Source of the DNA: Lytechinus pictus
Lineage: Eukaryota
DNA: 64,000 bases
Direction: 5' to 3'
Assembly (NCBI RefSeq): GCF_037042905.1
Contig: NC_087250.1
Coordinates: 9,798,001 to 9,862,000 of the forward strand
Below the pieces are notes generated by a model. It did no database searches, had not been told where the DNA came from, and saw only the letters and a list, made by a program, of their open reading frames with translations. The first letter of the stretch is position 1. The number at the start of each line of letters is the position of its first letter. This document shows, piece by piece, positions 6,639 through 53,890 of the stretch. The translations under genes and the position numbers were made by a program.

Positions 6639-6798
6639 TCAGTGTTAAACAGTGTGGGGGTATTCTGAACTTCGGTTTAATCTAAACTCTTGTCTAAAGT
6701 TGTGGTTTAACAATGAAAAGTCAGTCGTGGCACAAGTCTCTAGGAAAAAAGTATTTGGCAGACTAGTTAATTAGAATATAAAAATGTGTAAAAATAGT

Positions 6799-7430: not shown

Positions 7431-8294
7431 TAAGTTCTACGTAGGTTGAAAGTTTGGATCCGTCCCCGTCGATGGAAGTTGAGTCTGTAATAAGCAGCCG
7501 AAACGATGGCATATTTTATTGTTGGCTTCAACGATCTCAAACAGACTATACTTAAATAACAACGTGTCTTCCATCACAACACCTCGTACGTATTCAATAA
7601 ATGAATAATATTTTGACAACTGTAACTGTTTATGTTGATTCATATATTCAATAAATATTGGAAGAAAAAAAAAATTGCCTAAAATAACATCAAACTTTTT
7701 CTTTTTAATGATCAAACATAACAATGGTTTATAGTATTTTTACAGTCCATATCAATAAACATTTTTGAAGAACTGTAATATTACATTTCTAATGCTATGG
7801 TTACAGCACGTTGTTCGTGTCTTTGCACGAACTTATCTCACAACCTAAACTAATTAATGTTTATGATAATCAATAATTGTGAAAAATATATATTATAGAT
7901 TCACGTATTGGCTCAATACAGTCATAACAATAAACAGCCCAAAGTTAATGTTTTGTTTTTTTTTGCTTTGCCTTTTTTTGCCTCTGAATATGATTGATCT
8001 GATCATAACAAATTTGAGTAACTTTGAATAAACATTTGTTTGGAAAAAAAACATTTACTTTCGGATTTATTTTTTTCACTACATATATGCAGTAAATATA
8101 TATATATATGACCTAGATGGTGCAAACTGAAATATTGTTTTCTGTGGATCATTGTAATGCCGGGAGTGGCAGAATGGTGCAGGATTCAACTCTGAACATG
8201 GTATTTTCATGAATCAGAAGAGTGAATGGAGACATTTAGTCTAGTCTTACTTTCACTGTGATAAAAAACAATTTTTATGTTTTACATGTTATCA

Positions 8295-14847: not shown

Positions 14848-14940
14848 ACCGGTGCGTTGTTACGTACACCTGGAATCCAAGCAACATGGGCATGATGGGG
14901 AAGCTACGAACTTAAGCAGAGGTTCAAGGTTCGAGCCCTG
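14848..14940 (+). mobile_element. Decayed copy of the 7SL-like head (also 47326-47418)
   Basis: ACCGGTGCGTTGTTACGTACACCTGGAATCCAAGC...TGGGGAAGCTACGAACTTAAGCAGAGGTTC..GGTTCGAGCCCTG aligns by eye with 39435-39510. Confidence 0.6.
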
Positions 14941-15669
14941 CGTTACTGATTAATCGTACGCTTGATTTTTACTATGGATTGTACATCGTATTCAATGCAA
15001 TACTTAATAACATAATAATTATATACAATTGTTATACAATAATGGCTTAGCCAGTATATACATACGCAATGGCGGTCATAAAGATACATGATATATAAAA
15101 TAACCAATGTTACATAGTAATAATGAAAACATATAAAAGTCATTGTTGCTTTTGTCTGTAATCTGATTGCGCCACACCAGTCGAGCCAGTGCATACAGGG
15201 TGCACCTTGGGGGCGTTTGCCCCCCCCCCCTCCAAAAAAAAAACGCTTTCACCACCAAGACAAAAAAGAGATAAAATGTAAGGAAATAAAACAGAGATGG
15301 GTGAAATGTATGTATACTATCATTTTCTGAATATTAAGTCAAAATCTATCACTAGATTCGATTTTTGTAACAAAAAATATCAAAAGTTTTGCTCGCTCTC
15401 TTCGCTCACTCGCAACATTCTATTGATTTGTTTTCCCGGTACGCCATATCTGGCACCTCAGTTCCTTTGGCTCATCAAACCACTGAGTCGAGCTGAGTGA
15501 TTTGTTGAAAATAACATTATCTCCTTACGTTTTGTGCCATGAATATTCATGAGGCGTACTGACTAAATAAGCCCCATGATATCGTAATTTAATATGTCAA
15601 TCGCGTCGTAACCGAATTGAAGCCATTTTAGTCTTTCCCCGGATGAATAGCATTTCGGACTTTTCGCAA

Positions 15670-22211: not shown

Positions 22212-22722
22212 CCTGTAGTAGAGAACGACGATGTAAAACTTTTATGGGATTTTAATATCCAGACAGACAAGGTCATTGAAGCTAGACGACCAGACATCGT
22301 TCTCTTAAAGAAGAAGGAAAAGGAATGTCTCATCATAGATATTGCGATTCCGGGAGACTGCAGAGCTTGGCGTAAAGAGGAGGAAAAGATACAGAAGTAT
22401 AACGATCTGGCATGGGAGCTGAGAAGGATATGGAAGGTGAAGACGAAGGTGGTACCAATAGTCATCGGAGCCTTAGGAACAGTGACAACAAGACACAGAA
22501 GCTGTCTGGCTGTTCTAGGAGTCGAGGTGTCCTTTGAAACGATACAGAAGGCAAGCTTGCTTGGAACAGCTCATATCTTACGGAAGGTCTTGAATTAGAA
22601 AGAGAAGTGAACAATGAGAAGAGGACCCATTTGATAGAATATAGAACAATAACCCTAGATTTCTGGAAGAAGTCCGGTTGCTGTTTAATATACCAACATA
22701 ACATCAAGTTGTGGACAATGGA

Positions 22723-22778
<56 letters not shown>

Positions 22779-25700
22779 GAAATTATGGTCAAATAAAGAA
22801 AAGGAAAATCTTATGACTTGCTTCTACTTTGCGACTGATGTATCTCATAAAACTAGACATTACAGGAAGATAATGAGAGAAACGTGGCTTGAAAATAATG
22901 GTGATCCATCCGTTGGAGAGCAAGCTCTGGCAGACATGAAACAAAATATCCTTCGTACTCAATATTTCAGCGAGATTGAATTAGAGAGAATAAAACAAAA
23001 GGCACATATACTTTGTAGAAAAATTGATAATGCCGGTAATGACGAAACCAGCGACGATCATGGGGATGGTGATGACAAAAATGCCGGTCCTGACAATGCC
23101 AACGATGGCCATAGATATGCTGATGACAAGAATGCCGTCGATGGCGATGCCAACGGCGACCATGGTAATAAAGATGACAACGAAAACCATGATGGTGATG
23201 ACAATAATGTCGGTGTTGATGATTTCAACGATGGCCATGATGATGCTGACAACAATGATACCGGTGATGACGATACCAATGATGATCTCGGTGATACTGA
23301 AGTCAATAATGCTGGCAAGCCTAATGACGATGCCAACGACGACCATGCTGAAGCTAATAACGATGAAGCAGATAATGACAATGCTGCTATAAACGATAAC
23401 CATGGCGATGTTGTGAACAATGACACAGCTGATGATGACTATGATGCCGATATTGATGGTGAGAATGTGTATCATAAAGGCAGGAACGAAGGAGGCCAAC
23501 CAAATAAAGACGGGAGAGTAGAAACGTGTGACAAGAGATTATCAAGACATCCACCCAAGGCCAATGATACGACATGGCCAGCCAATTATAATGAAAATTC
23601 GAAGATCACAGATACACAATCGCTACACAGCAAAGTGAGGAGGAAAAGAGAAAAGAAATTATGGTCAAATAAAGAGAAGGAAAATCTTATGACTTGCTTC
23701 TACTTTGCGACTGATGTATCTCATAAAACTAGACATTACAGGAAGAGAATGAGAGAAACGTGGCTTGAAAATAATGGTGATCCATCCGTTGGAGAGCAAG
23801 CTCTGGCAGACATGAAACAAAGTATCCTTCGTACTCAATATTTCAGCGAGATTGAATTAGAGAGAATAAAGGAAAATGCCCAAAGTCTTTGTAGAGAACG
23901 AAAGCGTAATGCAACAAAGAATCAAGATGACAGGGGAAAACGAATAACAGATAAAGTAGACAAATTGCACGACACTAACAATGATAGAGAGAGATCGGGA
24001 AAAGGAGAAAACTCGGTAATCACCAACACTGAGAAGGTGAGAAATTCTATCCATGATGAAGGAAGTACAGTTTCTGGAAATACAGTGAATATATTTCTTG
24101 ACGAGGGGATTATATTCAACAATCAACAGGATGTTCGGACGCAGAGTGATAGGGGCTTACGAGATGGAGAACACAACCAAAGAATATCACAGGAACAACG
24201 TATGAATCGTCTTGATATGGACAGTGCTCAGAAGAAAAGAAAGAAAGATGACTACATCGCTCAATTTGGGGCGTGTTCCTTGTCTCTTCTACAAAAACTA
24301 GATGAAATCGAAACGGTAGACACACATATTGAGGCCGAATACCAAAGAGGAGCACATTTCTTTCAGTACTGTGACACATCTGACAACAAGCCCGCTGGTG
24401 GAGAGGGAAAGGGATCAACGATGAACAGAAGAAAAAACAGCTCTTATAAGACTGGATTCTCTTCACATGTAGACATACACCAACACTTGCAACAACCTAA
24501 AGTGAAATCTCGTACTCTTCGGGTTACAGCAATAGAAAAGGCTAAGAAAAGACAAGAAATTACTGAGACTGAACATGGGGACGATGTTGCCCATTTTCTA
24601 TGCGGTGGAGAGCCTCGCATTCAACAAGATAAAGAATGTGAAAGGAACGTATCGGGTAATATCAAATCATCTGTACCCGAGAGAGATGCGATTGTATCAC
24701 AAGACTCGACAAATGAAGACAGAGATTCCGATCAACGGCTGTTATCAGCACTGAGGAGCAACTTTGAATATGTGAAGGGAATATCAATATCAGATAGACC
24801 CCAAATTCCCAAGATCGACACAAGGTGCTGTACTACTAGGAGCGTGATCGACAAAGTAGATAAAATGCTTGAAAAGGTGCAATCTAGTCCTTCCAGTTTG
24901 TTGGAGATAAACTGTCTTATCTGGGCAGGAGCAAAAACTGTAACAGAACATATGGGACTCAAGCTTCATTCATCAAACCACTCTACCAATCATAAGAAGA
25001 AGGCTCCTGAATGGAAGAAAAGGCTACAAACCAAGATAGCAGAACTACATAAAGACGTGGCTCAACTCGGAGAAGTAGATAAGGGAAACATAAAATCCAA
25101 TCGGATGAAGAGCAATGCCAAAAGACTTCAGAAGAAATATCGCATTGACGATAAGACCCGTACTAGGACAACTGTTATAGAAACGCTCAAAATGAAGATA
25201 AATGCTCTCAAACACCGTGTTAAGAGATACACAAAGAGTAACAATTTCAAACGGCAGAATAAACTCTTCCATGGAAACAGAAAGAAATTCTTTCGTGAGC
25301 TGGATTCAAAGATGACTGAGACGAAAGATGTTCCATCGGCAGATGATATGAAGAACTACTGGAAAGAACTTTGGGATAATGATATCACTCACGAAGAAAC
25401 TCCCTGGATTCAGTCGGAAGCAGACAAATGGTCCAATGTGCCAGCGCAGCAGCTAGTAGACCTGACCTTACCTGAACTACAAAACTACAAAATACTAATC
25501 TACTGAAAATCATCAATGACATTATCAGAGGGAACAGGACTATTGAGAAATGGCTGCCAATTGGAAGGACCTATCTACTGTACAAAGGCAAAGACCCAAA
25601 ACAACCTAAGAACTATCGTCCAATCACTTGCCTTAATACTATGTATAAGCTGCTGACATCAACGCTTGCCATGCACATCGAACGACACATCGATGATCAT

Positions 25701-28700
25701 GACATAATGGAGGTCACTCAGAAAGGTTGTCGAAAAGGAAAGAAGGGTTGTAAAGATCACCTAATGACAAACAAAGCAATAATCGGTAATGCTCGCCAAA
25801 GACAGACCAATCTATCCATGGCTTGGATAGACTACAGGAAGGCATTTGACAGCGTACCACATAGTTGGATCATCAAAGTTCTAGAGATGTATCACATCAA
25901 TCCACAAATAGTCAAGTGCATATCAGCAGGCATGAAACAATGGAGCACTACTCTTTCGCTTACGATAGGCACCCGTTCGATGACAGTGGAGGGGGTCCGA
26001 ATCAAGAGAGGAATATTTCAAGGAGATTCCTTATCTCCTCTTTTATTCTGCTTAGCTCTCAATCCAGTATGCTCTCTCTTACACGCTACGAGTTATGGCT
26101 ACAGATACAAAGGGCAAGATGTATCTACGACAATAAACCATCTGATATATATGGATGATATCAAACTCTTTGCAAAAAATGACGATGAACTTCACAAGAT
26201 GATAGCAGTAGTTCAACATTTCAGCGATGACATCAAGATGTCGTTTGGTATAGACAAGTGTGCCAAAGTTACACTTGTACGAGGAAGGAGGGTAAATACA
26301 GGCGACATGTTTGTGCAAGATGAGGAAACATCAATCAAGGAACTGACTAATGATTCGACATATAAATATCTAGGCATAGCTGAGAACGATGTCATTAGCC
26401 ATAACACAATGAAGGAGAAGGCAACATCAGAATACAAAAGAAGACTCGGGCTGATCCTTAAATCCGAACTGAATGCCAAAAATAAGATTGAAGCGATCAA
26501 CACTCTAGCCATTCCTGTGCTTAGATACAGTTTTGGTATTGTTAACTGGAGACTAGCTGATATATGTGGCCTAGATATTATGACCAGAAAGCAATTAACG
26601 ATGCACAGATTACATCACCCAAAGGCCGCAATCGAAAGGTTGTACCTTCCCCGTGATCTTGGAGGAAGAGGTCTACAACAAATTGAGATGGTCTGGAATA
26701 TGGAAGCAACGAACCTCGCCAACTACCTATCCAATCCACCTGATATACTGACGAGTATATCCCTCGATTATGATAAATGTCAAGCAATATACTCCATTAA
26801 CAAGCAAGCATCTATCTTATTGGCACAACATCGACTGACACTACCCTACGGTGAAAAAGAGAAGGCAAGACTTAAATGCTCCTTTCACAAGAAACTTCAA
26901 GAGCAACTTAAATCCAAGCGACTTCATGGCCACCATGAAAAACAGATGCATCGGGAGTTCGTAGACCAGAAAGACACACATCAATGGCTTAAGTCGGCGG
27001 GACTAAGAGGTGAAACTGAAGGGTTCGTCTATGCTATTCAGGACCAGGTGGTGAGGACCCGTGCCTACGAAAAATCTATCCTCAGAAGAGACACAGACGA
27101 CACTTGCAGGATGTGTGGAAAAGAGACCGAAACAATCATGCATTTGGTATCAGCATGTTCGACTCTTGCTGGAACTGAGTACATCACAAGACATGACAAT
27201 ATTGCCAAAGTTATCCATTGGCAACTACTGAAGGATCGCGGTAAAATGACTTGTGATCACGCTTGGGAACATCAGCCACAAACGATCACCACGATCAATA
27301 ACAGCACCATATATTGGAACTGTGGCATACTAACGGATAGAACCATCAACTGCAACAAGCCGGACATCATCGTCAGAGACAACAACGTAGTAAATATCAT
27401 TGAGGTCTCTGTTCCCCATGATATCAACATTGCTGTAAAGGAAAGAGACAAACGGCTCAAGTATCAAGACCTAAGGATTGAGATCGAGAGGATGTGGAAC
27501 GTGAAAGCAGAGGTCACACCAGTCATCATTGGTCACTCAGGAATGGTGAAGAAGGGAATGGAAGCCTGCATAACCAAGATCTCTCCTCACCTTCGGATGT
27601 ACGACATTCAGAAGGCAGCTATCTTGGGTACAACCAGATTGATAAGAAAGACTCTCGGACATTAGTAGTGTAAAGTTCCTAGTTGCACTTGAAATTACTT
27701 GGTGCTTTTTGTTAGAGCAAAGTTATTCAAGAAAAAAATACGGACTTGATCCTGTTTAGAGGAATAATAATAATAAACAGTTCTTGTATAGCGCATATCA
27801 CGATTATGAATAATGTCTCTATGCGCTTCCAAAGGACTTGGATATTATTACCCCAGCTGTAGCTTGGCAGCCGTAATTACTAAGATTACAGCGCACACGC
27901 ATTTCAAGGAATAAATTCCTGCCAGGTATCCATTCACCTCACCTGGGTTGAGTGCAGCACAATGTGGATAAATTTCTTGCCGAAGGAAATTACGCCATGG
28001 CTGGGATTCGAACCCACAACCCTCTGTTTCAAAGTCCGGAGACTAATCCACTGGGCCACAACGCTCCACTAATTGTATAAAACCTATGGGGAAAATGAGA
28101 GGGGATTTTGGAGGGGTTTGAAGAGGGCTCAATGGTGGCGCATGGAAATAATTCCACGTTATATTACCAAGAAACCTCTGAAATATATTCATCTCAAATT
28201 TAAGGGGAATAAATTGAATGAAACAAATTCAAAATGTAAAATCGTCTATTCCTTCAGCCCTTCTTCATATCTCTCATATATTTTGTACACAACCATCTCG
28301 CGATACGCAAAGGTAAAAACAGGTCGTTATTTACTCAACGCTGTAGGGCGCTCTTCCCGAGCGTTTCCAGGGGGGTGAAACTCCGCTTCTGCATCCGGTC
28401 AGAATTGGGAAAAATTTTAGAGGGTCAAAAGTGGACACTGCTCCCATTTTTCAAGTACAAGCCTAGAGACACCGCCACTGTATTGGTACACCAGCGAAAT
28501 GGAGGCGTGGTCATGAAACGTCCTTCATGCATAGCGTAAATTAGCATTTTGTCACTAATTAGAATAATGTGCGACCTGATTGAATATCGTTGGTGTCGCT
28601 TTAGCTCGAGCTGCCTTTTAGCGCTCATGCATTCAAGGAATTAATCCTGCCGGGTACCCATTCACCTCATCTGTGTTGAGTGCAGCACAATGTGGATAAA

Positions 28701-31700
28701 TTTCTTGCTGAAATGAATTCTTATTTCTTATGAAATTAAATGAAAATTTCTTGCTAAAGGCTGGGATTCGAACCCACGACCCTCTGTTTCGAAGTCAGAA
28801 GAATTATCCACTGGGCCACAACGCTCCACAATGTACAACAAAGAAAAGCAGATATGGTGCCTATTATTAATTAGAATATTTGGAATTCGGAGGGGTTTGA
28901 GTAATATGTCTACTATTAAATCATACTGCATAGCTCATGTAGCTCTGATGCACATCGGGAATGCATTCACCCTTTGTATTCACAATGCAGTGTAACGGCA
29001 ATCGCAGGTATAGCCAAAGATACTACAAGGAGAAGATCGGACACTTCGACGGTTTTTTTAAACGCTCGATAAATGCTTATGGGGAAGGGCGCCAAACAGT
29101 GTTGAGTATTTAAACCTTTGCATATCTGCACTCGACTGTGTATAAAACCTATGGGGAAAATGAGAAAGGGGATTTTGGAGGGGTTTGGAGAGGGCTCAAG
29201 GGTGGCGCATGGAAATAATTACACGTTTTATTACCAAGAAACCTCTGAAATATATTTATCTCAAATTTAAGGGGAAAAAATTGACTGAAAAACTTTCCAA
29301 ATGTAAAATCGTCTATATCTTCAGCCCTTCACCATATCTCTCATATGTTTTGTACACAACCATCTCGCGATACGCAAAGGTAAAAAAAGGTCGTTACTTA
29401 CTCAACGCTGTAGGGCGCTCTTCCCGAGCGTTTCATTACGCGGTCTATGTACTGTCCGATCTTCCCCTTGTAGTATATTTGGTATAGCGTTTCGGGGGGT
29501 GCTGCATATGGGGAATAATACACGCAGCACCCCCTAGGAAAACCCCATCACCCCGCTGACACATTCATATGTTCTTGAAAGCATTCTGCGTCGCGGTGCT
29601 AAACTCCCTATTTAGATGCAATAGAGTTTCGTACCGCGACGCAGAATGTTTTTTTTTAGAACATAGGAATGTATTACAAAAAGGTTTTCGTGACAAGGGG
29701 TAACAAAGAGGTATTTGCCGAAAATTGGTGATACATAACAGAAGTTTTGTCCGGGACTCTGGACGAACGATATATTTGCAATTTTCGTGTTTTTTTAAAT
29801 ATATTTATTTCAATACGGTTAAAAAAATACTTGCTCTCAGCCGACAAGGCTGTTTCTCAGCAAGTCCGTGCAGTTCAATTTACAAAATTCTCAAAAACAA
29901 GTAAGAAAAATAAAAACGGGTGTTTTCTACTCGCCGTACGGGGAATGGGACCGCAGCGTTAGGACGAAACTGCTGATTTGGTTCACCAATATTCGACAAA
30001 GACCTCCCAGCTTTTCATTGTCATTTGACGCCTATTTTCATATCGGTTTGTGTTATAGGAAAAAGCGATCAGCCGATACAACGTGCAACTATTTACTACG
30101 TGGAATTTTAGACCAAGCTTCAGAAAAATTGAGGGGACGGAAACAGAACTACTCCATTGATTCATATGTCGGTTCGATAATGAGGGTGATGATGGTGAGG
30201 AAATAACATAAAAGATTAAATCCATGCTGCACATATGTTTCTTATACTCCACTTACTTCAGTTTAATTTGAATCCAAAGTTCAGAATAAAGGACGAATAA
30301 GCTTACTTAACATGTTTACCATCACAAGAATAATAGTAATAATAATGATATAACATTTATAGGGCGCTTAATACAGATGTTTCTAAGCGTTCAGTTTTCT
30401 GCTTTCTTTTGAATTACCGGGGAAAATAAAAAGTGGTCTTAATGATTTCAAAACAAAATTTAAAGAAACAAACGAAACGCAACTAAGATACGCACCTCCA
30501 TAATAATAGACCTACCCACAACTGATATCTAGACATTAAAAAGGTGGGTCTTTAGCAAGGTCTCAAGGGAGTTGGCATTATGGATACGAGATTGTAATTT
30601 ATTCCACTGGATTAGAACAACAACAGAGAAGGCTCGATCACCATAACTGGTATTTGTACGTGGTCCTAAAGTTAGCTGCAAGGTTTTTGAAGAACGAAGT
30701 GGTCTGAGTGAGCTAGAAGAGCGGAGAGAGATGAGGTAAGAGAGATATTCAGGAGCTAGGCCATTGATTATTTTATACGTCAAAAGAAGAACTTTGAAAA
30801 CGATGCGCTGGCGTATTGGAAGCCAATAAAATAATTACAGAATATGTGTGATATGTTCAGATTTTCTTAAAAGAGTAACAAGCCTTGCAGCAGTATTTTT
30901 TCATTCTTTGGAGTGGGCGTTAATGTGAGAGTGGGAAACCAGAAAGAGCAGAATTGCAGTAATCAAGGTGGAAAGATACAAAAGCATGGGTAAGTTTACT
31001 AGTTATGGTCATTGTGGTCGGGTCGAGTAGCTTCCTCATTTTTCCATGTTTGGAAAATCAAATCCATGTAGCAACGAACCATATTTAATTTGACCAATAA
31101 CAGAGCCACCATTGGGATCGTTACATGTGTCTAAATGACTTATCAATCCTTTTCATTTGCTCTTTAGTCTTCATCGAAAGTTCCCTGTATTGCAGAACAT
31201 GTATCGGTGTCTTTTCGCTTTGTTTTCCAGATTGACTATTAGTAAATGTACATAATCTTTTTAAACAAGACAGGCGCCCTTTATGAAAGTTCAGTCCAGA
31301 CAGATCTAAGGCTACCTCTTAAACATAAGAAATAGGACACTTATTTTGACAATCAAAGCTTTACAGGTTTCAACATCGACACGGTAGCGAATGGGAGCGC
31401 AAAGAGAAGGGTTTTTTCAGTCTGTGTCATCGTCTTCCCTCACTTCTCTCACACTCACTTTCTTTATTTCGAAACCTACTATCGTTTTTTTGTCCACATT
31501 CTGGTCATTTTTATACATACCGACTGCACATGTTGGTCCTTGAAACCTGGCTGAACAGGAGCAGGTGAAACCTTCCAGTGTTTCCGTGCATGTTCCTCCA
31601 TTAAGACATGGGTTGGGTAAACAGTCTGAGATCGAGAATTTGACGTGACACGACAAATTGAAGTAGATGGGAAAGTGAGTTAGCAGGGCATATAGAAACG

Positions 31701-34128: not shown

Positions 34129-37100
34129 CTTCTTCAACGCCGAGTATATTTACTGGAAACAAGAGATGCGTAAATATGGACAAGTTTGTGTATTGATTTG
34201 ATTTTTACGCATTTACATAGCATTTATGATTTATGTCATTCACGCAGACAAGTTATTACATGAATGATAATAATAATACTAATTATTATTATTATTATAT
34301 AACTTATCCGTTAGTATTTGCACATATGGGCAGTTGTAATTATATATTATAACGGTAATGGATTTGAGTTTTTTTCTAATCAGTATGACCATTTAGTTTC
34401 AAACGTTGTTCTTCCGAGGCCAAGTATAATAATAATAACAATAATAATAATAACAATAATGATAATAACAATGATGATAACAACAAAAGCTGGATTTTTA
34501 AGCGATCTTTGTCTGAGGATACATAGCGCTGCAATAATTACCCCAGCTTTAACTGTGCTGCCATGGCCCTTGGAAGCGGGGTGCTGAGTGTATTAATCAC
34601 CATTGGCAGCACCCCCAGGTATTCTGGCATAAATTGGGGGAAAATCTTAACCAAAATTACCCTCATTTTGTAGTAAAACCCCCTGTTTGTTGTTTTCTTT
34701 TTTCAAATTTCTTGAAACCAATTTGAGCTCCTGGAGGGCCCTGATACGTGCTAAAGCTGAAGCATTCAAGGAATTTCTTCCTACAGGTTACCCATTCATC
34801 TCGCCTGGGTTGAGTGCAGCACAATGTGGGTAAATTTCTTGAAGGAAAGTAGACCATGGCTAGGAATCGAACCCACGTCCCTCAGATTAAAAGATGAGAG
34901 TCATAAAGTACTAGACCACGACACCCCCACATAAAGAGCAGAACAAATCGTAGCAGGTGATGGATGATCCGATGTTATCTCTTTTCCTCAACTTTGCAGG
35001 GCGTATATATGTTACCATCATAATCATAACACACACACAAACAAAACTACACCACGGTCGTTTCCCTCCAGGGCTGCAACTTGTCACCTTTGCTATTTCA
35101 TTCTTGCTTTCACTTAGTTTACGAATGTTTTTCGAATGTTTTCCAAGGACGTTATGTGCGTCAACGCAGAGAATAATCCTTTGTTCATAGGGGGGAACAA
35201 TGCTTACCCCCCCCAAAAAAAAAAATGACTGTCCTCTGACTGACGCTCATGATGGACATGATGGTAAAAATGGTAAAGATAATGTCTGTTACCTCTGCCT
35301 TGTTTCCTTTTGCATCCGCAAGCCTCACAAAATTAGTACAGACCTTAAAACATTCATACTTATCAAGGCAGAATCTCCTAAGTCAAGAATACGCATGCAT
35401 TCAATGCGCGCAAATTGTGTTTCGTCGCAGAGCAACACACTACAGCAGTGGCACGAAGACAGCATTTACGCATTGATTGTCAAGATCCCAACGTGAGTGA
35501 TAGCTTTAAAGGGGAATCCAGCCCTGGCCATACACTGTTGTGTTGAGAAGGAGAAAAATAAATTAAAGAGAATGGTGATAGTTTGAAAGAAATTGGACAA
35601 GCAATAATAAAGTTATAGCTGTTTATAAATTGAGATCACTAATACTATGTAGATTTCAAATTGGCAAATGGGTAAGTAAATTATGACAAGGGGCAAGGAC
35701 AACTTTCCCATAGGCCATGTACTTTATTATCAGCGATTTGTGGTTTTCTCCTAAGTACCCATTCCCCTGGGGCCTTAATCTAAATATAAAAAAAGTAGTA
35801 TATTGTTTTATGTCCTCATGAAAGAAAAACATAAATTAAAATAAAACTTTTGGGAAAAATGACATTTTAGCCATAATATGCATTGGAGTACATGGAAGAG
35901 TATTCCTTGCCTTACATCACTATGACATCCCATATGCGGCCATTTGAAGTCTCCATGGGTATAGTGATTACCAATATTTACAACTTTTAAAAATTCATAA
36001 CTTTCTTGTTGTTTGTCCAAAATTGTTCAAACTTCCACCTATCAACTTGTCTGATTTTTCTTTTCCTTATAAAAACAAGTTTTTATTTGGGTTTGATTCC
36101 CCTTTAAAGGTATACGTTCCTGGAATTCATGAGGGCGTTGGACAAACTACGCTCAACTTGCGGCGCCAGCTACTCATTGGCACCAGTGCAATACGACGCC
36201 TACGCAGATGCCACGTTCTGTATGCCCGAACTGCATGACGACTTTCAATTCGCGTATGCTTCAGCTGCTGTTCAAAGATCTTGGCAGGTTGGCCCCGCCT
36301 CCTACTGCAGTGACGTAAGCAGATCAACGCAGCGCAGTACTGTGCATAGGTACATGCACATCACTGGTGATTGACAGCCGCATGCAAATTACATGTACGA
36401 CAATGATCTTTGTAAAGAGGTAAGAGGCGAGTAGAGCAGTAACAATACCGTCCAACAGCGCCATACCTTTTAGTGAGCATATCCGAGATACCGAATTCAA
36501 ATGATGACCGGAAGCACTCTCAAAACAAAACAGTCGAAATGACTAGTTAATCGGGTCAGTTGAGTGCAAACTGTCATTCTAGTCATGTGTATTCTAATTG
36601 TATTTTACTAGAACAGAGTTATTTCTGACTAGAATATACGTCAGAAATGTGACTAGACATTGTCAGTTGCACCCAGCTGACTACTGATCTAGTCATTTTG
36701 ACTGCTGTGATTCAAGGATGTGTGACCAGGGCTTCACAAGACAAAGAGCCTTGCTCTAAAACTGACCATGCTCATGCATGGAATTAACTTCAAGAAAAAA
36801 ATTAATAGGACGAACATCCATTTCCCCCAGATACTTTTCCTACCTACAACAGAAATGATTTATACCTCGGTCACATTTGCTCTACGGCGAGTCGAAAACA
36901 GCCGTTTTATTCATTTTTTCTAAACCACCTTTATGTAGCTGGTACAAAAATGCTAAAACGGTCGTTTTCGATTCGCCGTACGGCCGCCGTAGAGCAAATG
37001 TGACCGAGGTATCAGTGTTAAACAGTGTGGGGGTATTCTGAACTTCGGTTTAATCTAAACTCTTGTCTAAAGTTGTGGTTTAACAATGAAAAGTCAGTCG

Positions 37101-38631
37101 TGGCACAAGTCTCTAGGAAAAAAGTATTTGGCAGACTAGTTAATTAGAATATAAAAATGTGTAAAAATAGTAACTTATATATTTTTTCTTGCCATCCAGG
37201 CTGAAAGCTTGCTCATTGAAAATAAGGAGCGCGCAATTAAAACCAAACCATTCAATTTTTGGCCTCTCGTAGTTTTAACACTGGCTTAGACTATTCTATA
37301 ACTTACACCCTACTTCGGAATACCGTCCAACCTTATATATTTTTCTTGCCATCCAGGCTGGAGGCTGGCTCATTAAACATAAGGAGTGCGCAATTAAAAC
37401 CAAACCATTCAATTTTTGGCCTCTCGTAGTTTTAACACTGGCTTAGACTATACTATAACTTACACCTTACTTCAGAATACCGTCCAACCTTATATATTTT
37501 TTCTTGCCATCCAGGCTGAAAGCTGGCTCATTAAACATAAGGAGCGCGCAATTAAAACCAAACCATTCAATTTTTGGCCTCTCGTAGTTTTAACACTGGC
37601 TTAGACTATTCTATAACTTACACCCTACTTCGGAATACCGTCCAACCTTATATATTTTTCTTGCCATCCAGGCTGGAGGCTGGCTCATTAAACATAAGGA
37701 ACGCACAATTAAAACCAAACCATTTAATTTTTGGCCTCTCATAGTTTTAACACTGGCTTAGACTATACTATAACTTACACCTTACTTCAGAATACCGTCC
37801 AACCTTATATATTTTTCCTTGCCATCTAGGCTGGAGACTGGCTCATTAAACATAAGGAGCGCGCAATTAAAACCAAACCATTCAATTGTTGGCCTCTCAT
37901 AGTTTTAACACTGGCTTAGACTATACTATAACTTACACCCTACTTCGGAATACCGTCCAATAAGTTCTACGTAGGTTGAAAGTTTGGATCCGTCCCCGTC
38001 GATGGAAGTTGAGTCTGTAATAAGCAGCCGAAACGATGGCATATTTTATTGTTGGCTTCAACGATCTCAAACAGACTATACTTAAATAACAACGTGTCTT
38101 CCATCACAACACCTCGTACGTATTCAATAAATGAATAATATTTTGACAACTGTAACTGTTTATGTTGATTCATATATTCAATAAATATTGGAAGAAAAAA
38201 AAAATTGCCTAAAATAACATCAAACTTTTTCTTTTTAATGATCAAACATAACAATGGTTTATAGTATTTTTACAGTCCATATCAATAAACATTTTTGAAG
38301 AACTGTAATATTACATTTCTAATGCTATGGTTACAGCACGTTGTTCGTGTCTTTGCACGAACTTATCTCACAACCTAAACTAATTAATGTTTATGATAAT
38401 CAATAATTGTGAGAAATATATATTATAGATTCACGTATTGGCTCAATACAGTCATAACAATAAACAGCCCAAAGTTAATGTTTTGTTTTTTTTTGCTTTG
38501 CCTTTTTTTGCCTCTGAATATGATTGATCTGATCATAACAAATTTGAGTAACTTTGAATAAACATTTGTTTGGAAAAAAAAACATTTACTTTCGGATTTA
38601 TTTTTTTCACTACATATATGCAGTATATATA

Positions 38632-40594
38632 CAGTGCGTCCCAAAAAAAACTATACACTTTTGAAATGGCTGCCAAATAAAAAAATGTACCACTTTGGGG
38701 GAAAAGACTTATAGATATGGAAAGCCTATAAAGTCAACTTTCAAATGACACCAAAAAGTTGGAAAACTATTCATGCTTGAGCGAGCACTGCCCACTGAAA
38801 CAAAGGGTATGAAAATTAGGGTGGGCTGGAATTAGCCTTCCAATTTCTTTCAGTTTTTTTTGTTTGGTACTTGCAAAGTTGATGGTTATTTGGTGAATTA
38901 AAGATCAGTTGTGATCAGTTTGTTGTTTGTGAAAATTTAATGGTTATTAAATTGAAATTTAATGCATGAGTGATCATGAATTGGGTGCAGCATTTTGTCT
39001 TATCATGTGGGTCTCAACAATGTGTTCACGACAGTCAGGAGAAGAGGGGGTAATATGACTTAGGTAGGTGAAGTACGTTGATGGGATAAAGGTCAACAGA
39101 ACATTTAGCAACCCCTCTCTCAATCTCACCCCCCCCCCCGCTTATCTCCTCCTGAGAGACTAAGCTCAGCTAAAGTAGGATGGGCAGGAATTAGCCTTAC
39201 AGTTTTTTTGAGTGGTTAGTCCTTTGGAACTTGTTAAGCTAAATTAATGAGAGAGATAAGTTTTGGTTTCTTAGGCAAATTTCATGAGTTACTAAATTGA
39301 AATTTAATGCATGAGTGAACAGGAATTGTAATTTTATTGTTGCATATTCATCTTGTGAACCTCAGAAGTGTGTTCGTGAGAGTCAGAGTAATGTGATGGT
39401 ACCCGTTACAAGCAAGAGGGCGAGATATGCTAAGACTGGGCGTTGTGGCGTGCGCCTGTAATCCAAGCTATGTGGGGAAGTTACAAATTGATGCAGAGGT
39501 TCGAGCCCTGGTCACGTCTTTCGGATGGTGACGTTAAAGGTCGGTCCCAGACGTAAATAATCATTTCTGATTGATACACGTCTGACAAAACTCAAATACA
39601 CACTTGGTTAAAAGGGCATTCCTCTTCTTTTTTTTCCTTTTACAAATTGAAAGTCATATGTACCCTCCCCTCTCCACCTCCATTTCCCAGCCCCCAGCCC
39701 CCCCCCCTCTCTCTGTCTCACTTCCTGCATCATTTGTAGCCTATTCAAAACTTAACTGCCAAGTGACCGGTGGCTGATGGTCAGTTTTTTTTTTCAATGA
39801 TTACCAAGAAATTTAATGATTATGATGATTAATGAAATAATTAATTGAAAAAAAACTGAATGTTTGATTGATCACATTGCACATTGAATAAGTTGATTTA
39901 CTGATAAATTGTTGATTAAATGATTGATAGGAAAAAGTTGATGTCCCAATTCAGAATTAATCATTAAATCAACATTCTGCTCTGGACTTCACGCGTACAT
40001 GACAATAGCCATCAGTCTCTCAACAGGAGGGAGGGCGGGAGAGAGGGAGGGGGCGGGGGCTGAATGTTCTGTTGACCCTTATTCCATCAACCTACTTCTC
40101 TGACTTAAGTCCTATCTCACCCCCTATTCTCCCGACGCCCATGAACACATTGCTGAGATCCACATGATAAATTTGAAATGCTGCCCAAAACGAGATCCAA
40201 ATGATAAAGTTTAAATGCTCCCCAAAAAGTGTAACTTGTGTTCACTCATGCATTAAAGTTCAATTTAATAATTTATAAAATTTGCTTAAGCAACCAAAAC
40301 TGGTCATGGTTGATCATTAATTTATCACATCGCCCTTAACTTTGCAAGTTCGAAAGGATTTGCCTCTCAAAAACTTACATAAATCGGAAGGCTAATTCCA
40401 GCCCACCCTAATTTTCATACCCTTTGTTTCAGTGGGCAGTGCTCGCTCAAGCATGAATAGTTTTCCAACTTTTTGGTGTCATTTGAAAGTTGACTTTATT
40501 GGCTTTCCATATATGTAAGTCCTTTTCCCCAAAGTGCTACATTTTTTATTTGGCAGCCATTTCAAAAGTGTATAGTTTTTTTTGGGACGCACTG
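38632..40594. mobile_element. Non-autonomous Tc1/mariner-like foldback element, present only in unit 2
   Basis: TA-CAGTGCGTCCCAAAA...TTTTGGGACGCACTG-TA, with ~210-bp near-perfect TIRs plus longer imperfect arms. Empty (TA)n site at ~8093-8109 in unit 1. Confidence 0.9.
39434..39603 (+). mobile_element. Putative 7SL-RNA-derived SINE (Alu-domain-like head, B-box, Deu/Nin-like body)
   Basis: GACTGGGCGTTGTGGCGTGCGCCTGTAATCCAAGCTA resembles the SRP RNA 5' end. B-box GGTTCGAGCCC at 39498. CGTCTTTCGGATGGTGACGTTAAAGGTCGGTCCC follows. Decayed copies at 14848-14940 and 47326-47418. Confidence 0.65.
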
Positions 40595-47000: not shown

Positions 47001-48476
47001 TGAAGTAAATAGAAAACAATAATAATGTTTGTAACTAATCATTTATATTGGGATTTATTCATTGTTTAGTCCATACCAGGGCTCCATAACACAAAGGTTT
47101 GAACTCAATCGCTAAATACCAATGACCAATCAAGATCTTCGTTGCACGCGCACTCTGTTTAAAATACTGACCGGGAACGTTCGGTGCGGTTCTTTCATAC
47201 ATGCAATTCATCGGAAGCCTTTGTGTTACGGAGCCCTGAACGTATTAATCTTGACTCAATGCAATGTCAAAACCTTAATTTGCACCTGCCCCAAATTTAG
47301 TGCCGCCCTGTTTCCATGGCAATGTACCGGTGCGTTGTTAAGTACACCTGGAATCCAAGCAACATGGGCATGATGGGGAAGCTACGAACTTAAGCAGAGG
47401 TTCAAGGTTCGAGCCCTGCGTTACTGATTAATCGTACGCTTGATTTTTATTATGGATTGTACATCGTATTCAATGCAATACTTAATAACATAATAATTAT
47501 ATACAATTGTTATACAATAATGGCTTAGCCAGTATATACATACGCAATGGCGGTCATAAAGATACATGATATATAAAATAACCAATGTTACATAGTAATA
47601 ATGAAAACATATAAAAGTCATTGTTGCTTTTGTCTGTAATCTGATTGCGCCACACCAGTCGAGCCAGTGCATACAGGGTGCACCTTGGGGGCGTTTGCCC
47701 CCCCCCCCCCTCCAAAAAAAACACGCTTTCACCACCAAGACAAAAAAGAGATAAAATGTAAGGAAATAAAACAGAGATGGGTGAAATGTATGTATACTAT
47801 CATTTTCTGAATATTAAGTCAAAATCTATCACTAGATTCGATTTTTGTAACAAAAAATATCAAAAGTTTTGCTCGCTCTCTTCGCTCACTCGCAACATTC
47901 TATTGATTTGTTTTCCCGGTACGCCATATCTGGCACCTCAGTTCCTTTGGCTCATCAAACCACTGAGTCGAGCTGAGTGATTTGTTGAAAATAACATTAT
48001 CTCCTTACGTTTTGTGCCATGAATATTCATGAGGCGTACTGACTAAATAAGCCCCATGATATCGTAATTTAATATGTCAATCGCGTCGTAACCGAATTGA
48101 AGCCATTTTAGTCTTTCCCCGGATGAATAGCATTTCGGACTTTTCGCAATTATTACGGGGAAACTCTCTACACCGCATCAATCCCTTTGAAATTGCAAGT
48201 CAAACAACAATTGAGAGCAGAGAGGCTTTTGTCGAAAGTTGGTGGACCGGGACAGTATCGAATGTTGGTGGACCGGGACAGTATCGGAATATCTTGACTC
48301 TGGACAACGACATATTTGCAATCGTTCGCCCGGTGCAAATCGTCGGATGATCTGCTGTACCAGTCCACCATCTTTCGACAAAAGCTACTCAGCTCTCCAT
48401 TGTGATTTTAATTGCATTTCCAAAGGAATCAATGCGTTGTAGAGAGTTTCCCCGTAGTAAATGCGAAAAGTCCCTA

Positions 48477-51700: not shown

Positions 51701-53890
51701 AACAAAAGATAATTCTTGTAAAGAATATTTAGCTATAATATTTTGAGAACATATTTTTTAAACTTTTATACAACTTTTAAATGCATTAATTAAGTTTTAC
51801 CAAAGTTTCAAGATGGTATTTTCTTATATCAAATGTATTTACCAACGCCGTAAATATAGAGACGTTAGTAAAACGTTATTTTGTTTCTGAAAAACAATAT
51901 GCATCATAATAACATCAAAATAAGGATATTTGTTTTTTAATATGTTTAGTTATTTGTTTTAATATATACCAATACATATATATACAGTGCGTCCCAGAAT
52001 AAACGAAACCGAGATTTAGCGATGATTTATCATAACTTAATCATAAATACAATATACAAATTACCTATCAATGTAAAGCTTAGAATCTCCTCTTTCATCT
52101 GATATTACTTAGATTATTTCTCATTCACGCATGAGTGAGCAAAAACAATTTGAATAAAGGATACCAAAAACTCATTTGGCGGGGGGTATCTGAATTTCAA
52201 AAAGAAAATCACATGCCTAAAAAGTTCAATATCTGCTCTTTCATTTGATACCTTAATCACAAAAAATGGTCCAGAAGTAAAAAAGTTATGTTCCCTCGAA
52301 ACAATGCTTGTATTTCCATAATTTCATTAAATAAACTTGTTTTCACCGGTTTCCCACAGAAGCTATCGCACGGTTAACAAAAGACTTAGTGCATGGCTGA
52401 TCTTCAACAAAACGGAGTATCGAGTGAGTTTGAACGCTAGCCTGTAAAACCTCTTCATCTTATGAAATTATTGAAATTCAAGCCTTATTTCAAATAACCA
52501 GAACTTTCTTATTTCTTGACCATTTTCTGTAATTGAGGTATCAAATTAAAGAGGAGATATTGAACTTTTTTAAAATGTGGTTTTCGTTTTGAAACCCAGA
52601 TACAGCCCGCCAAATGACGTTTCGTTATCCCCTCTTCAAATTGTTTTTGCTCACTCATGCGTGAATGAAAAATGATCTAAGTAATTCCAGATGAAAGAGG
52701 AGATTCTAAGCTTTACAATGGTAGGTCATTTGTCTATTGTATTTGTGATTAAGTTATGATAAATTATTGATAAATCTCGGTTTCGTTTTTTGTGGGAAGC
52801 ACTGTATATAATAATATACCAAGTATATTTCAGCGCCTTGAGCACATAATCAATGTGGATTTGGCGCTTTATAAATACTCTATGTTATTATTATTATTAT
52901 TATTATTAATAGCATCAGTGGCGGACCGTGACTCGGAGGAGACAAAGCAATGGAGGGGCCCTGTATTGTTTGCGAACAATGCTGTGCCCCTCCAATGCTT
53001 TGTCTCCTCCGGGTCACGGTCCGCCGCTGAATAGCATATTTTCACAATTTTTCAAGAACGTTTGTTGTTATTGTCACACACAATGCTGAACATTACAAAA
53101 TGTGAGTAAATATATATGTGTATATATTAATGTTAAAATTATATCATAAAAATGTCAAAATAAGGATGTTTCTGATATTTTGTTAAACATCATTAAAAAC
53201 ATTGTAAAAACATTGCTAAAAATGTTTTGTTATAATATTTGAGAAACATAAACATGGCCGTGGGGCGTTACTAAACCGAATGTAAGTAAAGGTGACAAAA
53301 TAATTACAATTATATTACTGTATTTGCTTCGAGGGTCAATTCAGGGAATACTTGTTAAGGGTACAGTCTTATTTCCAATACTTGTTAGGGTACGGTTTCA
53401 CACGCCAATACTTGTTAAGGGGTGTATTTTCAGAACATGGAAAATACTTGTTTAGGGTGCTTTTCGAAACCCAATGGACGTGCCTAGTATCCATTCGTCA
53501 ATAGAAGTGCCCCCCCCCCCGGATCGCCCCGGATAGGTCTAATGATTCAAAAGGCTAAACAAAACAATTGCTGCATACCACACATTTAAGTTAGGGCCTT
53601 TTCACACGTAAATCTTGAATCATCATTGCAATGATGATTGCAATTCGTCTTTAGAATCATCGGACCTTTCACACGGAAAATTCGTATCGTAATTTGAATG
53701 AAACCAAACTGGAATTCACCTCAGGAATAGAATTTGAATTCGTGAATGTGATTAGCGTTCGTGATTCTAGTTTGGTTCCAAACGTGCAAAAAAATCGTCA
53801 CTAGCCTTTTTTTTTTTACTGGAATCGTCGTTCAAATTACGATTTTTTTTTTCCCTGAGAAAGGACGGTTAGTGACCTGAAAATACTCAC

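What the first reader, a model, noticed from the sequence alone, without database searches (positions are those of the whole stretch)
39434..39603. Candidate 7SL(SRP RNA)-headed SINE with a Deu/Nin-like body in an invertebrate genome
Seen: the first ~45 nt (GACTGGGCGTTGTGGCGTGCGCCTGTAATCCAAGCTATGTGGGGA) parallel the SRP-RNA/Alu 5' end (GCCGGGCGCGGTGGCGCGTGCCTGTAGTCCCAGCTACTCGGGAG). A Pol III B-box GGTTCGAGCCC follows about 65 nt from the start, then CGTCTTTCGGATGGTGACGTTAAAGGTCGGTCCC, then a short (CA)n end. A separate decayed copy of head plus B-box lies in a different context at 14848-14940 (and 47326-47418), so it is dispersed. Known: 7SL-derived SINEs are rare and best known from Euarchontoglires (Alu, B1), and Deu/Nin-domain SINEs normally have tRNA or 5S heads. 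Inference: an independently evolved Alu-like family combining a 7SL head with a Deu/Nin core. I cannot confirm from here that it is undescribed.
Basis: partly seen in the sequence, partly recalled or inferred. Interest (0 to 1): 0.85.

Follow-up and report, generated by a model that had tools for sequence, protein, structure and literature searches.

The report
Sea urchin SINE with 7SL-like head
This 170-base stretch is one copy of a short retroposon (SINE) family in a sea urchin whose front end looks like the start of the signal-recognition-particle RNA, an origin described so far only for a few vertebrate SINEs such as human Alu.

Summary
Window 39434-39603 has four parts. The first ~47 nt is the only region in its 451 bases to match Rfam's metazoan SRP (7SL) model (29.5 bits, E 5.7e-6, below the gathering score of 70). 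A canonical B box follows at 39497-39507. A 33-nt block matches the 5' block of the published Nin-DC SINE domain. The element ends in a short (AC)3 tail.

It is a real family. Searches starting from the antisense reading frame of the body found 13 spurious ORFs on 13 unnamed ENA contigs. They have unrelated flanks and (CA)n tails of variable length. Six carry head and body together.

The window is Lytechinus (sea urchin) DNA. This copy sits inside a 1963-bp Tc1-like non-autonomous transposon, itself a recent insertion in one copy of a ~32-kb tandem duplication.

Still open: whether the head descends from the urchin's own 7SL gene (about 0.7), genomic copy number, TSDs, partner LINE and transcription.

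Papers up to 2026 report 7SL-derived SINEs only in supraprimates, hagfish and a shrew mole. If the origin is confirmed, this is a new invertebrate lineage.

The parts
39434..39603 (+). Full SINE copy (about 170 nt): head, B box, Nin-like block, 3' region and (AC)3 tail
   Evidence: All 13 ENA antisense ORFs align to the window only within 39436-39612 on the minus strand. The segment is absent from the two paralogous sub-repeat units of the host transposon. The 5' limit coincides with model position 1 of RF00017 and with the start of similarity to the decayed copy.
39435..39481 (+). 7SL-like head: equivalent of SRP RNA Alu-domain helices 2, 3 and 4, including the box A equivalent at 39439-39448
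   Evidence: about 37 of 46 positions equal the Rfam consensus (my count from the printed alignment), and 1 of 14 pairs is flagged. Box A is 8 of 10 identical to the human 7SL box A printed. The same stretch is conserved as a nine-residue antisense motif in 6 of 13 other copies.
39497..39507 (+). Pol III box B (GGTTCGAGCCC), element positions 64-74
   Evidence: Read directly. It is retained in the decayed copy at 14930-14940. It is 6 of 11 identical to the human 7SL box B printed, so it is of the tRNA type.
39516..39548 (+). Nin-DC-like 5' block (GTCTTTCGGATGGTGACGTTAAAGGTCGGTCCC)
   Evidence: By eye, 26 of 33 positions match the Nucella Nin-DC SINE stretch printed in supplement file 4 of PMC4758252. 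The motif search gave 1 match in the window and 0 in 100 shuffles.
39549..39597 (+). 3' region of unknown origin, presumably the part a partner LINE recognises
   Evidence: Its antisense translation is the most conserved part across the 13 copies, with invariant or nearly invariant columns in alignment A1. It has no match elsewhere in the window.
39598..39603 (+). (AC)3 tail
   Evidence: Read directly. In the other copies the antisense ORFs show runs of alternating V and C of different lengths just before the unrelated flank, which is a (CA)n tail of variable length.
39628..39635 (+). T8 run in the flank, the first possible Pol III terminator downstream of the element
   Evidence: Read directly. 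There is no run of four or more T inside 39434-39603. That it acts as a terminator is inference only.
38632..40594 (.). Host element: 1963-bp non-autonomous Tc1-like DNA transposon carrying the SINE copy
   Evidence: It is present only in duplication copy 2. The empty site is at 8097-8100 in copy 1. It is flanked by TA within a (TA)n run, and its termini are CAGTGCGTCCC...GGGACGCACTG. The arms 38680-38858 and 40369-40547 are 94% complementary. No ORF of 120 aa or more lies inside.
14848..14946 (+). Decayed head-plus-B-box copy without the Nin-like body
   Evidence: 68 of 81 aligned positions are identical to 39435-39515. It has no SRP hit of its own.
47326..47424 (+). The same decayed copy in the second unit of the tandem duplication (offset 32,478), so not an independent insertion

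Best explanation
Window 39434-39603 is one roughly 170-nt copy of a multi-copy SINE of a Lytechinus sea urchin.

The element is modular, with five parts:
(a) A 5' head of about 47 nt that most likely derives from the 5' Alu domain (helices 2-4) of 7SL/SRP RNA and holds a 7SL-type box A.
(b) A spacer and a canonical tRNA-type box B at positions 64-74.
(c) The 5' block of the Nin-DC conserved SINE domain.
(d) A conserved 3' region of about 50 nt.
(e) A (CA)n tail.

Inferred mechanism. RNA polymerase III starts at the first base, using boxes A and B, and reads through to a T run in the flank. The RNA is then copied into new sites by the reverse transcriptase of an unidentified LINE that recognises the 3' region and microsatellite tail, so the partner would not be an L1-type, poly(A)-dependent LINE. 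The head, if it binds SRP9/14 as the 46-nt 5' Alu domain does in human cells, would bring the RNA to ribosomes that are making the LINE protein.

This particular copy landed in, or was carried by, a non-autonomous Tc1-like DNA transposon. That transposon later inserted at a TA in one copy of a young tandem duplication.

Shown: the family, its modular anatomy, its boundaries, the tail and the host transposon. Inferred: 7SL descent, transcription, SRP9/14 binding and LINE-mediated retroposition.
For: Family and boundaries.
- The antisense frame of 39484-39591 found 7 proteins with E <= 0.001 among 1,835,955,588 representatives.
- A second search found 11 with E <= 0.001 among 14 candidates, 6 of them new.
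- The union is 13 single-member ENA clusters on 13 contigs of different lengths.
- All 13 align to the window only inside 39436-39612. Their flanks match neither the window nor, with one exception, each other: P0123 and P0128 have similar 3' flanks.
- (CA)n tails of different lengths precede the flanks.
- The segment is missing from the two paralogous sub-repeats of the host transposon.

Head-body linkage. Of the 13, 6 carry the head motif in line with the body (P0121, P0122, P0123, P0128, P0130, P0132). One more (P0133) follows this copy to about 39494.

7SL origin.
- RF00017 scores 29.5 bits, E 5.7e-6, with 13 of 14 pairs in helices 2-4 not flagged and all three helix-2 pairs kept through changes on both sides.
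- There is no tRNA hit.
- The tRNA-SINE control gives tRNA and not SRP.
- Box A is 8 of 10 identical to the human 7SL box A.
- The similar part is the same size as the 46-nt 5' Alu domain that binds SRP9/14 and is necessary for Alu retrotransposition (PMC12199147, abstract).

Nin block. Nin SINEs are known in sea urchin (SINE2-3_SP).

Organism: the window's LINE ORF is 99% identical to a Lytechinus pictus predicted protein.
Against: - The SRP hit is far below Rfam's gathering score (29.5 against 70). It does not appear when the whole window is scanned.
- Only about 47 nt are clearly 7SL-like. The model's helix 5 and 3' end are aligned with 5 of 13 pairs flagged, so the 3' 7SL part kept by all described 7SL SINEs is not shown.
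- Box B is of the tRNA type, only 6 of 11 identical to the human 7SL box B.
- tRNA-derived mollusc SINE heads printed (Lsa_3, Nla_1) share about 15 of the first 17 nt and a TAATCC motif with this head. Part of the resemblance could therefore come from Pol III promoter constraints.
- No sea urchin 7SL gene was compared.
- No target-site duplication could be identified for this copy.
- 3 of 13 copies (P0124, P0126, P0129) diverge at the head/body junction (about 39511-39523), and P0127 diverges upstream of the B box. The body therefore also exists without this head, or with another one.
- The predicted RNA fold is no more stable than shuffles (z -0.06).
- Genomic copy number, transcription and partner LINE are unknown.
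Confidence: 0.65

Rival explanations
1. The SINE family is real, but its head descends from a tRNA gene (or another Pol III-transcribed RNA) that lost its D-arm region. On this reading the likeness to the 7SL 5' domain is convergence driven by the shared box A and by chance.
For: - Box B is canonical tRNA type.
- tRNA-derived mollusc SINE heads (Lsa_3, Nla_1) printed begin almost like this head and contain a TAATCC motif.
- The SRP hit is sub-threshold and is lost in the whole-window scan.
- The helix 5 and 3' 7SL part is not supported.
- Nin-domain SINEs described so far have tRNA or 5S heads.
Against: - No tRNA model hit at E <= 10 in 39300-39750, whereas SRP scores 29.5 bits.
- ARAGORN finds nothing.
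- The tRNA-headed SINE in the same window behaves the opposite way.
- A tRNA origin needs two sizeable deletions. The 7SL alignment is contiguous over about 47 nt, keeps helices 2-4, and has compensatory changes in helix 2.
Confidence: 0.2
2. It is not a retroposon. The 7SL-like piece and its body would be cargo of DNA transposons, or a MITE-like unit that spreads only by hitch-hiking.
For: - This copy lies inside a Tc1-like non-autonomous element that moved recently.
- No TSD was found for the SINE itself.
- SINE domains are reported to have spread inside a DNA transposon (PMC6887750, title and start of abstract in the listing).
Against: - The flanks of the 13 other copies do not match this transposon or any other part of the window.
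- The microsatellite tail has variable length, and the 5' end is sharp at the first base of the RNA-like head. Both are retroposon marks.
- The two sister sub-repeats of the same transposon lack the segment.
Confidence: 0.07
3. It is a plain 7SL pseudogene or retrocopy, or a chance resemblance with no family behind it.
For: 7SL retrocopies are common in some vertebrates (PMC7245038, Introduction and Discussion).
Against: - The similarity stops after about 47 nt and no S-domain sequence is present. The model skips 225 positions.
- The same head-body-tail composite recurs in 6 of 13 other copies.
- 13 other copies exclude chance.
Confidence: 0.03

Closest known systems
SINE1-1_EBu of the hagfish Eptatretus burgeri (Kojima 2020, PMC7245038; abstract and sections 3, 5, 10 read)
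   Same: Both have a 7SL-like head fused to a body and tail borrowed from an older SINE/LINE lineage. Both have a microsatellite tail ((AAC)n there, (CA)n here), which implies a non-L1 partner LINE. Both arose outside supraprimates and are chimeric in origin.
   Different: The hagfish element keeps 96 nt of the 7SL 5' end plus the 3' end (positions 97-140), with the usual central deletion. It was compared with the hagfish's own 7SL gene, its partner is an identified RTE LINE, and 2363 full-length copies were counted. Here only about 47 nt are 7SL-like, no 3' 7SL part is shown, the core is Nin-like, and the partner LINE and copy number are unknown.
Alu, B1, FLAM and the shrew-mole Urop SINEs (PMC13023118, abstract and passages; PMC12199147, abstract)
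   Same: The 5' Alu-domain sequence has box A at the same place, and a box B lies some 50-60 nt further on. The conserved part here is the same size as the 46-nt 5' Alu domain that binds SRP9/14 and is necessary for Alu retrotransposition.
   Different: Those elements consist of 7SL sequence only (5' and 3' parts after a central deletion of about 183 nt), have A-rich tails, and are moved by L1. This element has a foreign core and a (CA)n tail, and it is in an echinoderm.
Nin-DC / Deu-domain SINEs, such as SINE2-3_SP of Strongylocentrotus purpuratus and the Lottia, Littorina and Nucella Nin SINEs (PMC4758252 text and supplement file 4; PMC5804259 passages)
   Same: They share the 5' block of the domain (26 of 33 by eye against Nla_Nin). 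That domain is already recorded in Echinodermata.
   Different: The described members have tRNA or 5S heads. After GGTCCC this element does not follow the published domain, apart from a short ACGTAAA-type match.
V-domain SINE sequence spread by the MER6 DNA transposon in mammals (PMC6887750; only the title and start of the abstract were seen, in the listing)
   Same: A SINE sequence carried inside a DNA transposon, which can then copy it by cut-and-paste bursts.
   Different: Here the SINE also exists on its own in many unrelated contexts. Whether other copies of this Tc1-like element carry it is unknown.

Membership tests
SINE (SINEBase definition, PMC3531059, passage) | Short (<1 kb) interspersed, non-tandem repeat | tested here: met
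   The element is about 170 nt. 13 further copies lie on 13 contigs, with flanks that do not match the window.
SINE (SINEBase definition) | [quoted passage not shown] | not testable with these tools
   No genome is held and public DNA scans found nothing. Only 14 body-bearing copies and one decayed head copy were seen.
SINE (SINEBase definition) | At least 60% identity to tRNA, 5S rRNA or 7SL RNA over at least 60 nt | tested here: inconclusive
   Against the Rfam consensus, about 37 of 46 positions match in the first 47 nt but only about 3 of the next 14 (my count). No real 7SL sequence could be used.
SINE (general) | Internal Pol III boxes A and B | tested here: met
   Box A at 39439-39448 is 8 of 10 identical to human 7SL box A. 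Box B GGTTCGAGCCC lies at 39497-39507. This is sequence evidence only; transcription was not tested.
SINE (general) | LINE-type tail and target-site duplications | tested here: inconclusive
   A (CA)n tail of variable length is seen in this copy and in most of the 13. No TSD is recognisable for this copy. The DNA of the other copies is not available.
SINE1 (7SL-derived SINEs) | 5' region homologous to the 5' end of 7SL RNA | tested here: met
   RF00017 scores 29.5 bits, E 5.7e-6, starting at model position 1. There is no tRNA hit, and the control SINE gives tRNA and not SRP. The hit is below the gathering score and is absent from the whole-window scan.
SINE1 (7SL-derived SINEs) | 3' end of 7SL joined to the 5' part after a central deletion (about 183 nt in all described families) | tested here: inconclusive
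   The model places 39510-39521 on its 3' end, but 5 of 13 helix-5 pairs are flagged. That is no better than weak.
SINE1 (7SL-derived SINEs) | Alu-domain helices 2, 3 and 4 can form | tested here: met
   13 of 14 pairs are not flagged, and helix 2 is kept by changes on both sides. The MFE fold also forms helix 3.
SINE1 (7SL-derived SINEs) | Descent from the host's own 7SL gene; SRP9/14 binding | not testable with these tools
   No Lytechinus 7SL sequence and no binding assay were available.
Nin-DC / Deu SINE superfamily | Conserved 5' block of the domain | tested here: met
   26 of 33 positions match by eye against Nla_Nin. The motif is unique in the window, with 0 matches in 100 shuffles (I wrote the motif after seeing this copy).
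Nin-DC / Deu SINE superfamily | Rest of the domain (variable region, second conserved block and beyond) | tested here: not met
   By eye against the sequences, nothing beyond a 7-nt ACGTAAA match follows GGTCCC. No alignment program was run on the published sequences.
Tc1/mariner non-autonomous element (the host of this copy) | TA target duplication, terminal inverted repeats, empty site | tested here: met
   No transposase ORF lies inside. The superfamily name rests on the TA target and on CAGT termini as I recall them.

The most novel reading that the evidence does not exclude
Echinoderms hold an independently born, possibly still active SINE lineage. It kept from 7SL RNA only the ~47-nt 5' Alu domain, the same piece shown in human cells to bind SRP9/14 and to be necessary for Alu retrotransposition. 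It grafted that piece onto a Nin-core SINE moved by a non-L1 LINE. That would be a fourth independent origin of 7SL-headed SINEs, after the supraprimate, hagfish and shrew-mole lineages, and the first in an invertebrate. It would also be a natural experiment showing that ribosome targeting through the 5' Alu domain helps retroposition whatever the LINE partner.
Probability: 0.5. Interest if true: 0.75.

Novelty: new variant of a known kind. Interest (0 to 1): 0.62.

Why it matters
SINEs born from 7SL RNA are extremely rare. Specialists writing in 2020 and 2026 list only supraprimates, hagfish and one shrew mole, and each new lineage has been used to ask why the Alu domain is kept.

A sea urchin family would extend this origin to invertebrates and to a stringent, microsatellite-tailed LINE partner. 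It keeps just the 5' Alu domain, joined to the ancient Nin core. It would offer an independent test of the idea that SRP9/14 binding, not 7SL ancestry as such, is what makes these heads successful.

It also matters for annotation. A head this Alu-like in an invertebrate assembly can be mistaken for human contamination or for a 7SL gene fragment.

Tried and rejected
- No whole genome is held for the window.
- Exact-pattern scans of public DNA found nothing. A head-to-B-box pattern gave 0 hits in metagenome and viral contigs. A hook from the window's abundant tRNA-type SINE gave 0 hits in metagenome, genome and viral contigs. Body patterns gave 0 hits in genome and viral contigs.
- Sequencing runs: 24 were listed and no RNA holder was listed. 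The one lay of reads returned nothing for this stretch. Read depth, transcript ends and expression therefore stay open.
- Earlier findings of the scan held nothing on this genome or sequence.
- The decayed copy alone gives no SRP hit. The whole-window cmscan at E <= 1 lists only hairpin-type miRNA models and not SRP.
- Thermodynamic folding of 39434-39638 is no better than shuffles (z -0.06), so there is no argument from stability.
- TSD search: I compared the flanks by eye and aligned the three sub-repeats of the host transposon. No convincing duplication emerged. MAFFT's suggested 3' limit near 39580 was rejected because the other copies continue to the (CA)n tail.
- Partner LINE: the window's own LINE (ORFs at 22702-27665) ends in an (AAT)n-type tail and shares nothing with this element.
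- Papers: the 1988 sea urchin retroposon paper (PMC336326) is not held. The SINEBase supplements are not readable. One broad search was uninformative.
- Dfam, Repbase and SINEBase could not be queried.
Full report
**What is there.**
Taking 39434 as position 1, the element has five parts:
- a head of about 47 nt;
- a spacer, then the box B GGTTCGAGCCC at 39497-39507 (positions 64-74);
- the block GTCTTTCGGATGGTGACGTTAAAGGTCGGTCCC at 39516-39548;
- about 50 nt of further sequence;
- (AC)3 at 39598-39603.

No run of four or more T lies inside the element. The first such run is a T8 at 39628-39635.

**Is the head 7SL-like beyond chance?**
- A cmscan of 39300-39750 against all 4227 Rfam families put Metazoa_SRP (RF00017) first, at 39435-39521 with 29.5 bits and E 5.7e-6. 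The gathering score is 70.
- The alignment starts at model position 1.
- By my count from the printed alignment, about 37 of the first 46 positions equal the consensus.
- Of the 14 pairs in helices 2, 3 and 4, one is flagged as negative non-canonical. The three pairs of helix 2 are kept through changes on both sides.
- Beyond that the model skips 225 positions. Its helix 5 and 3' end are aligned poorly, with 5 of 13 pairs flagged.
- No tRNA model reached E 10 in that stretch, and ARAGORN found no tRNA in the window.
- As a control I scanned an equally long stretch around a tRNA-headed SINE of the same window (21500-21950). It gave tRNA (19.8 bits, E 0.15) and no SRP.

Two results count against the reading:
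- The hit is far below the gathering score. No family reaches its gathering score anywhere in the window.
- The hit is not listed when all 64 kb are scanned at E <= 1 with the stricter filters. That scan listed only hairpin-type miRNA models.

On the promoter boxes, the box A equivalent (39439-39448) is 8 of 10 identical to the human 7SL box A printed in Kojima 2020. Box B is only 6 of 11 identical to the human 7SL box B and is of the canonical tRNA type.

**Is it a family?**
Within the window the only relative is 14848-14946. It matches 39435-39515 at 68 of 81 aligned positions (score 36, against 10.3 +/- 1.5 and a maximum of 16.5 in 300 shuffles). The similarity starts at the first base of the head and stops just before the Nin-like block.

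The window therefore gives one independent decayed head copy, which has no SRP hit of its own.

No genome is held and exact-pattern scans of public DNA found nothing. I therefore used the one long open reading frame of the element, the antisense frame of 39484-39591 (36 codons), as a protein query.
- HMMER over 1,835,955,588 representatives found 7 proteins with E <= 0.001, at 69-94% identity.
- A word-indexed search with residues 33-78 of one of them found 11 with E <= 0.001 among 14 candidates, 6 of them new.
- The union is 13 proteins. Each is a single-member cluster from an unnamed ENA assembly, and they lie on 13 contigs of different lengths between 565 and 15,491 bases.

These proteins are spurious ORFs read across other copies:
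- Two alternative frames of the same DNA appear among them.
- All 13 align to the window only inside 39436-39612 on the minus strand.
- Their N-terminal parts, which lie on the 3' side of the element, match neither the window nor, with one exception, each other. They are preceded by runs of alternating V and C of different lengths, which is a (CA)n tail of variable length. The exception is P0123 and P0128, whose flanks resemble each other; this may be one locus in two species or a duplicated locus.

The sample is biased towards copies whose antisense frame happens to be open.

**Head-body linkage.**

| Copies | Number | What the ORF shows |
|---|---|---|
| P0121, P0122, P0123, P0128, P0130, P0132 | 6 of 13 | Runs from the tail through the body and B box into the head. 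Ends with the same nine-residue motif that this copy's head encodes; one has two substitutions (columns 201-210). |
| P0133 | 1 of 13 | Follows this copy to about 39494, then stops. |
| P0125, P0131 | 2 of 13 | End before the head, so they are uninformative. |
| P0124, P0126, P0129 | 3 of 13 | Diverge at about 39511-39523, the junction of head module and body. |
| P0127 | 1 of 13 | Shares the B-box region, then diverges. |

The last four could be 5'-truncated copies. Because their break points cluster at the module boundary, they could also be members of a sister family with the same body and another head. Only P0121 reads past the 5' end, and there it departs from the window at once.

**Boundaries in this copy.**
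The copy lies in a 1963-bp insertion (38632-40594) that is present in duplication unit 2 and absent at 8097-8100 in unit 1. The flanking sequence is 98-100% identical.

The insertion has termini CAGTGCGTCCC...GGGACGCACTG and is flanked by TA within a (TA)n run. Its long inverted repeats have arms 94% complementary, and it has no ORF of 120 aa or more. It is a non-autonomous Tc1-like element that moved after the duplication.

Its interior holds three diverged copies of one sub-repeat. Only the middle one carries the extra segment that begins at 39434. MAFFT placed the 3' limit near 39580. The other copies show instead that the element continues to the (CA)n tail at 39603. I could not find a target-site duplication.

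**The body.**
Supplement file 4 of Matetovici et al. 2016 (PMC4758252) prints Nin-DC SINEs. Against the Nucella sequence (GTCTTTCGGATGAGACGATAAACCGAGGTCCC) the block at 39516-39548 matches 26 of 33 positions by eye, with one extra base. The Lottia, Littorina and Potamopyrgus sequences are similar.

A motif built from them occurs once in the window and in 0 of 100 shuffles. I wrote the motif after seeing this copy, so the test is biased.

After GGTCCC the element does not follow the published domain, apart from a short ACGTAAA match. The same paper states that Nin-DC is part of the Deu domain. Luchetti and Mantovani 2016 list Nin in Echinodermata, through SINE2-3_SP of S. purpuratus. The body is therefore a partial Nin-type core and is not a surprise in a sea urchin.

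**Organism.**
The reverse-transcriptase ORF at 25476-27665 is 99% identical to an NCBI protein named for Lytechinus pictus. The window is therefore sea urchin DNA.

**How it most likely works (inference).**
- Boxes A and B, about 48 nt apart, would drive Pol III from the first base, with termination in the flank.
- The conserved 3' region and the (CA)n tail point to a LINE that recognises its template's 3' end, not an L1-type, poly(A)-dependent LINE.
- The window's own LINE ends in an (AAT)n-type tail and shares nothing with the element, so it is not the partner.
- The 7SL-like part is the same size as the 46-nt 5' Alu domain that Moldovan et al. 2025 found necessary for Alu retrotransposition and associated with SRP9/14 (abstract). 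If the urchin head binds SRP9/14, it would place the RNA at ribosomes.

None of this was tested.

**Rivals.**
The serious rival is a tRNA origin of the head.
- For it: tRNA-derived mollusc SINE heads printed share about 15 of the first 17 nt and a TAATCC motif with this head. Box B is also of the tRNA type.
- Against it: no tRNA model hit, no cloverleaf, a contiguous 47-nt 7SL alignment with its helices intact, and the opposite behaviour of the control SINE.

I put 7SL descent at about 0.7 and the existence of the SINE family at about 0.9. A DNA-transposon-only repeat, a 7SL retrocopy and chance are each contradicted.

**Comparison and novelty.**
Kojima 2020 (abstract and sections 3, 5, 10 read) and Kosushkin et al. 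2026 (abstract and passages) state that 7SL-derived SINEs are known only from supraprimates and hagfish, plus the shrew mole reported in 2026. They also state that all arose after a central deletion that keeps both ends of 7SL.

My searches for 7SL with SINE and sea urchin (7 papers) and for 7SL, SINE, invertebrate and head (10 papers) turned up no invertebrate case. Repbase, Dfam and SINEBase could not be searched, and the SINEBase supplements could not be read.

This element works like a hagfish-type chimera: a 7SL head on an older SINE body with a microsatellite tail. It differs in keeping only the 5' domain and in having a Nin core. Because the 3' 7SL part is not shown and the host 7SL was not compared, I file it as a 7SL-headed SINE candidate, a new variant of a known kind, and not as a proven SINE1 member.

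Noticed in passing
window 1-63700 (unit 1 about 1-30500, unit 2 about 30506-63000, start of a third unit at 63020-): The whole window is a tandem segmental duplication of about 30.4-32.5 kb at 97-100% identity. Every feature in it, including a LINE and several SINEs, therefore appears twice.
   Followed up: partly
window 38632-40594, against the empty site at 8097-8100: A 1963-bp non-autonomous Tc1-like element sits in only one duplication unit. It has long inverted repeats, is flanked by TA within a (TA)n run, and holds three internal sub-repeats. This is a sign of recent DNA-transposon activity in this sea urchin.
   Followed up: yes
window 6652-7424 and 37025-37954: An array of tandem repeats of about 158 bp is about 530 bp longer in the second duplication unit.
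   Followed up: no
window 22702-27665 (+), repeated at 55294-60179: A non-LTR retrotransposon has a 729-aa reverse-transcriptase ORF that is 99% identical to a Lytechinus pictus predicted protein, and a 934-aa upstream ORF with an acidic D/N-rich repeat region. Its 3' end carries an (AAT)n-type tail.
   Followed up: partly
window 21600-21840, 27900-28070, 28600-28830 (minus strand), and their duplicates: Several copies of a tRNA-headed SINE with a Deu-type core end in TAA-rich tails like that of the neighbouring LINE. They flank the LINE on both sides, so this may be a SINE-LINE partner pair.
   Followed up: no
window 19462-20293 and 20396-20517 (duplicates at 51979-52810 and 52913-53034): A 365-nt inverted repeat (85% complementary, 102 nt apart) lies next to a hairpin that scores 40 bits against the plant MIR408 model. 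That is surely a spurious hairpin match, and a reminder that low covariance-model E-values occur on palindromic repeats.
   Followed up: no
proteins P0123 and P0128 (unnamed ENA contigs): Two SINE copies have similar but not identical 3' flanks. This could be the same insertion in two related species or a duplicated locus. If it is orthologous, it would help date the family.
   Followed up: no
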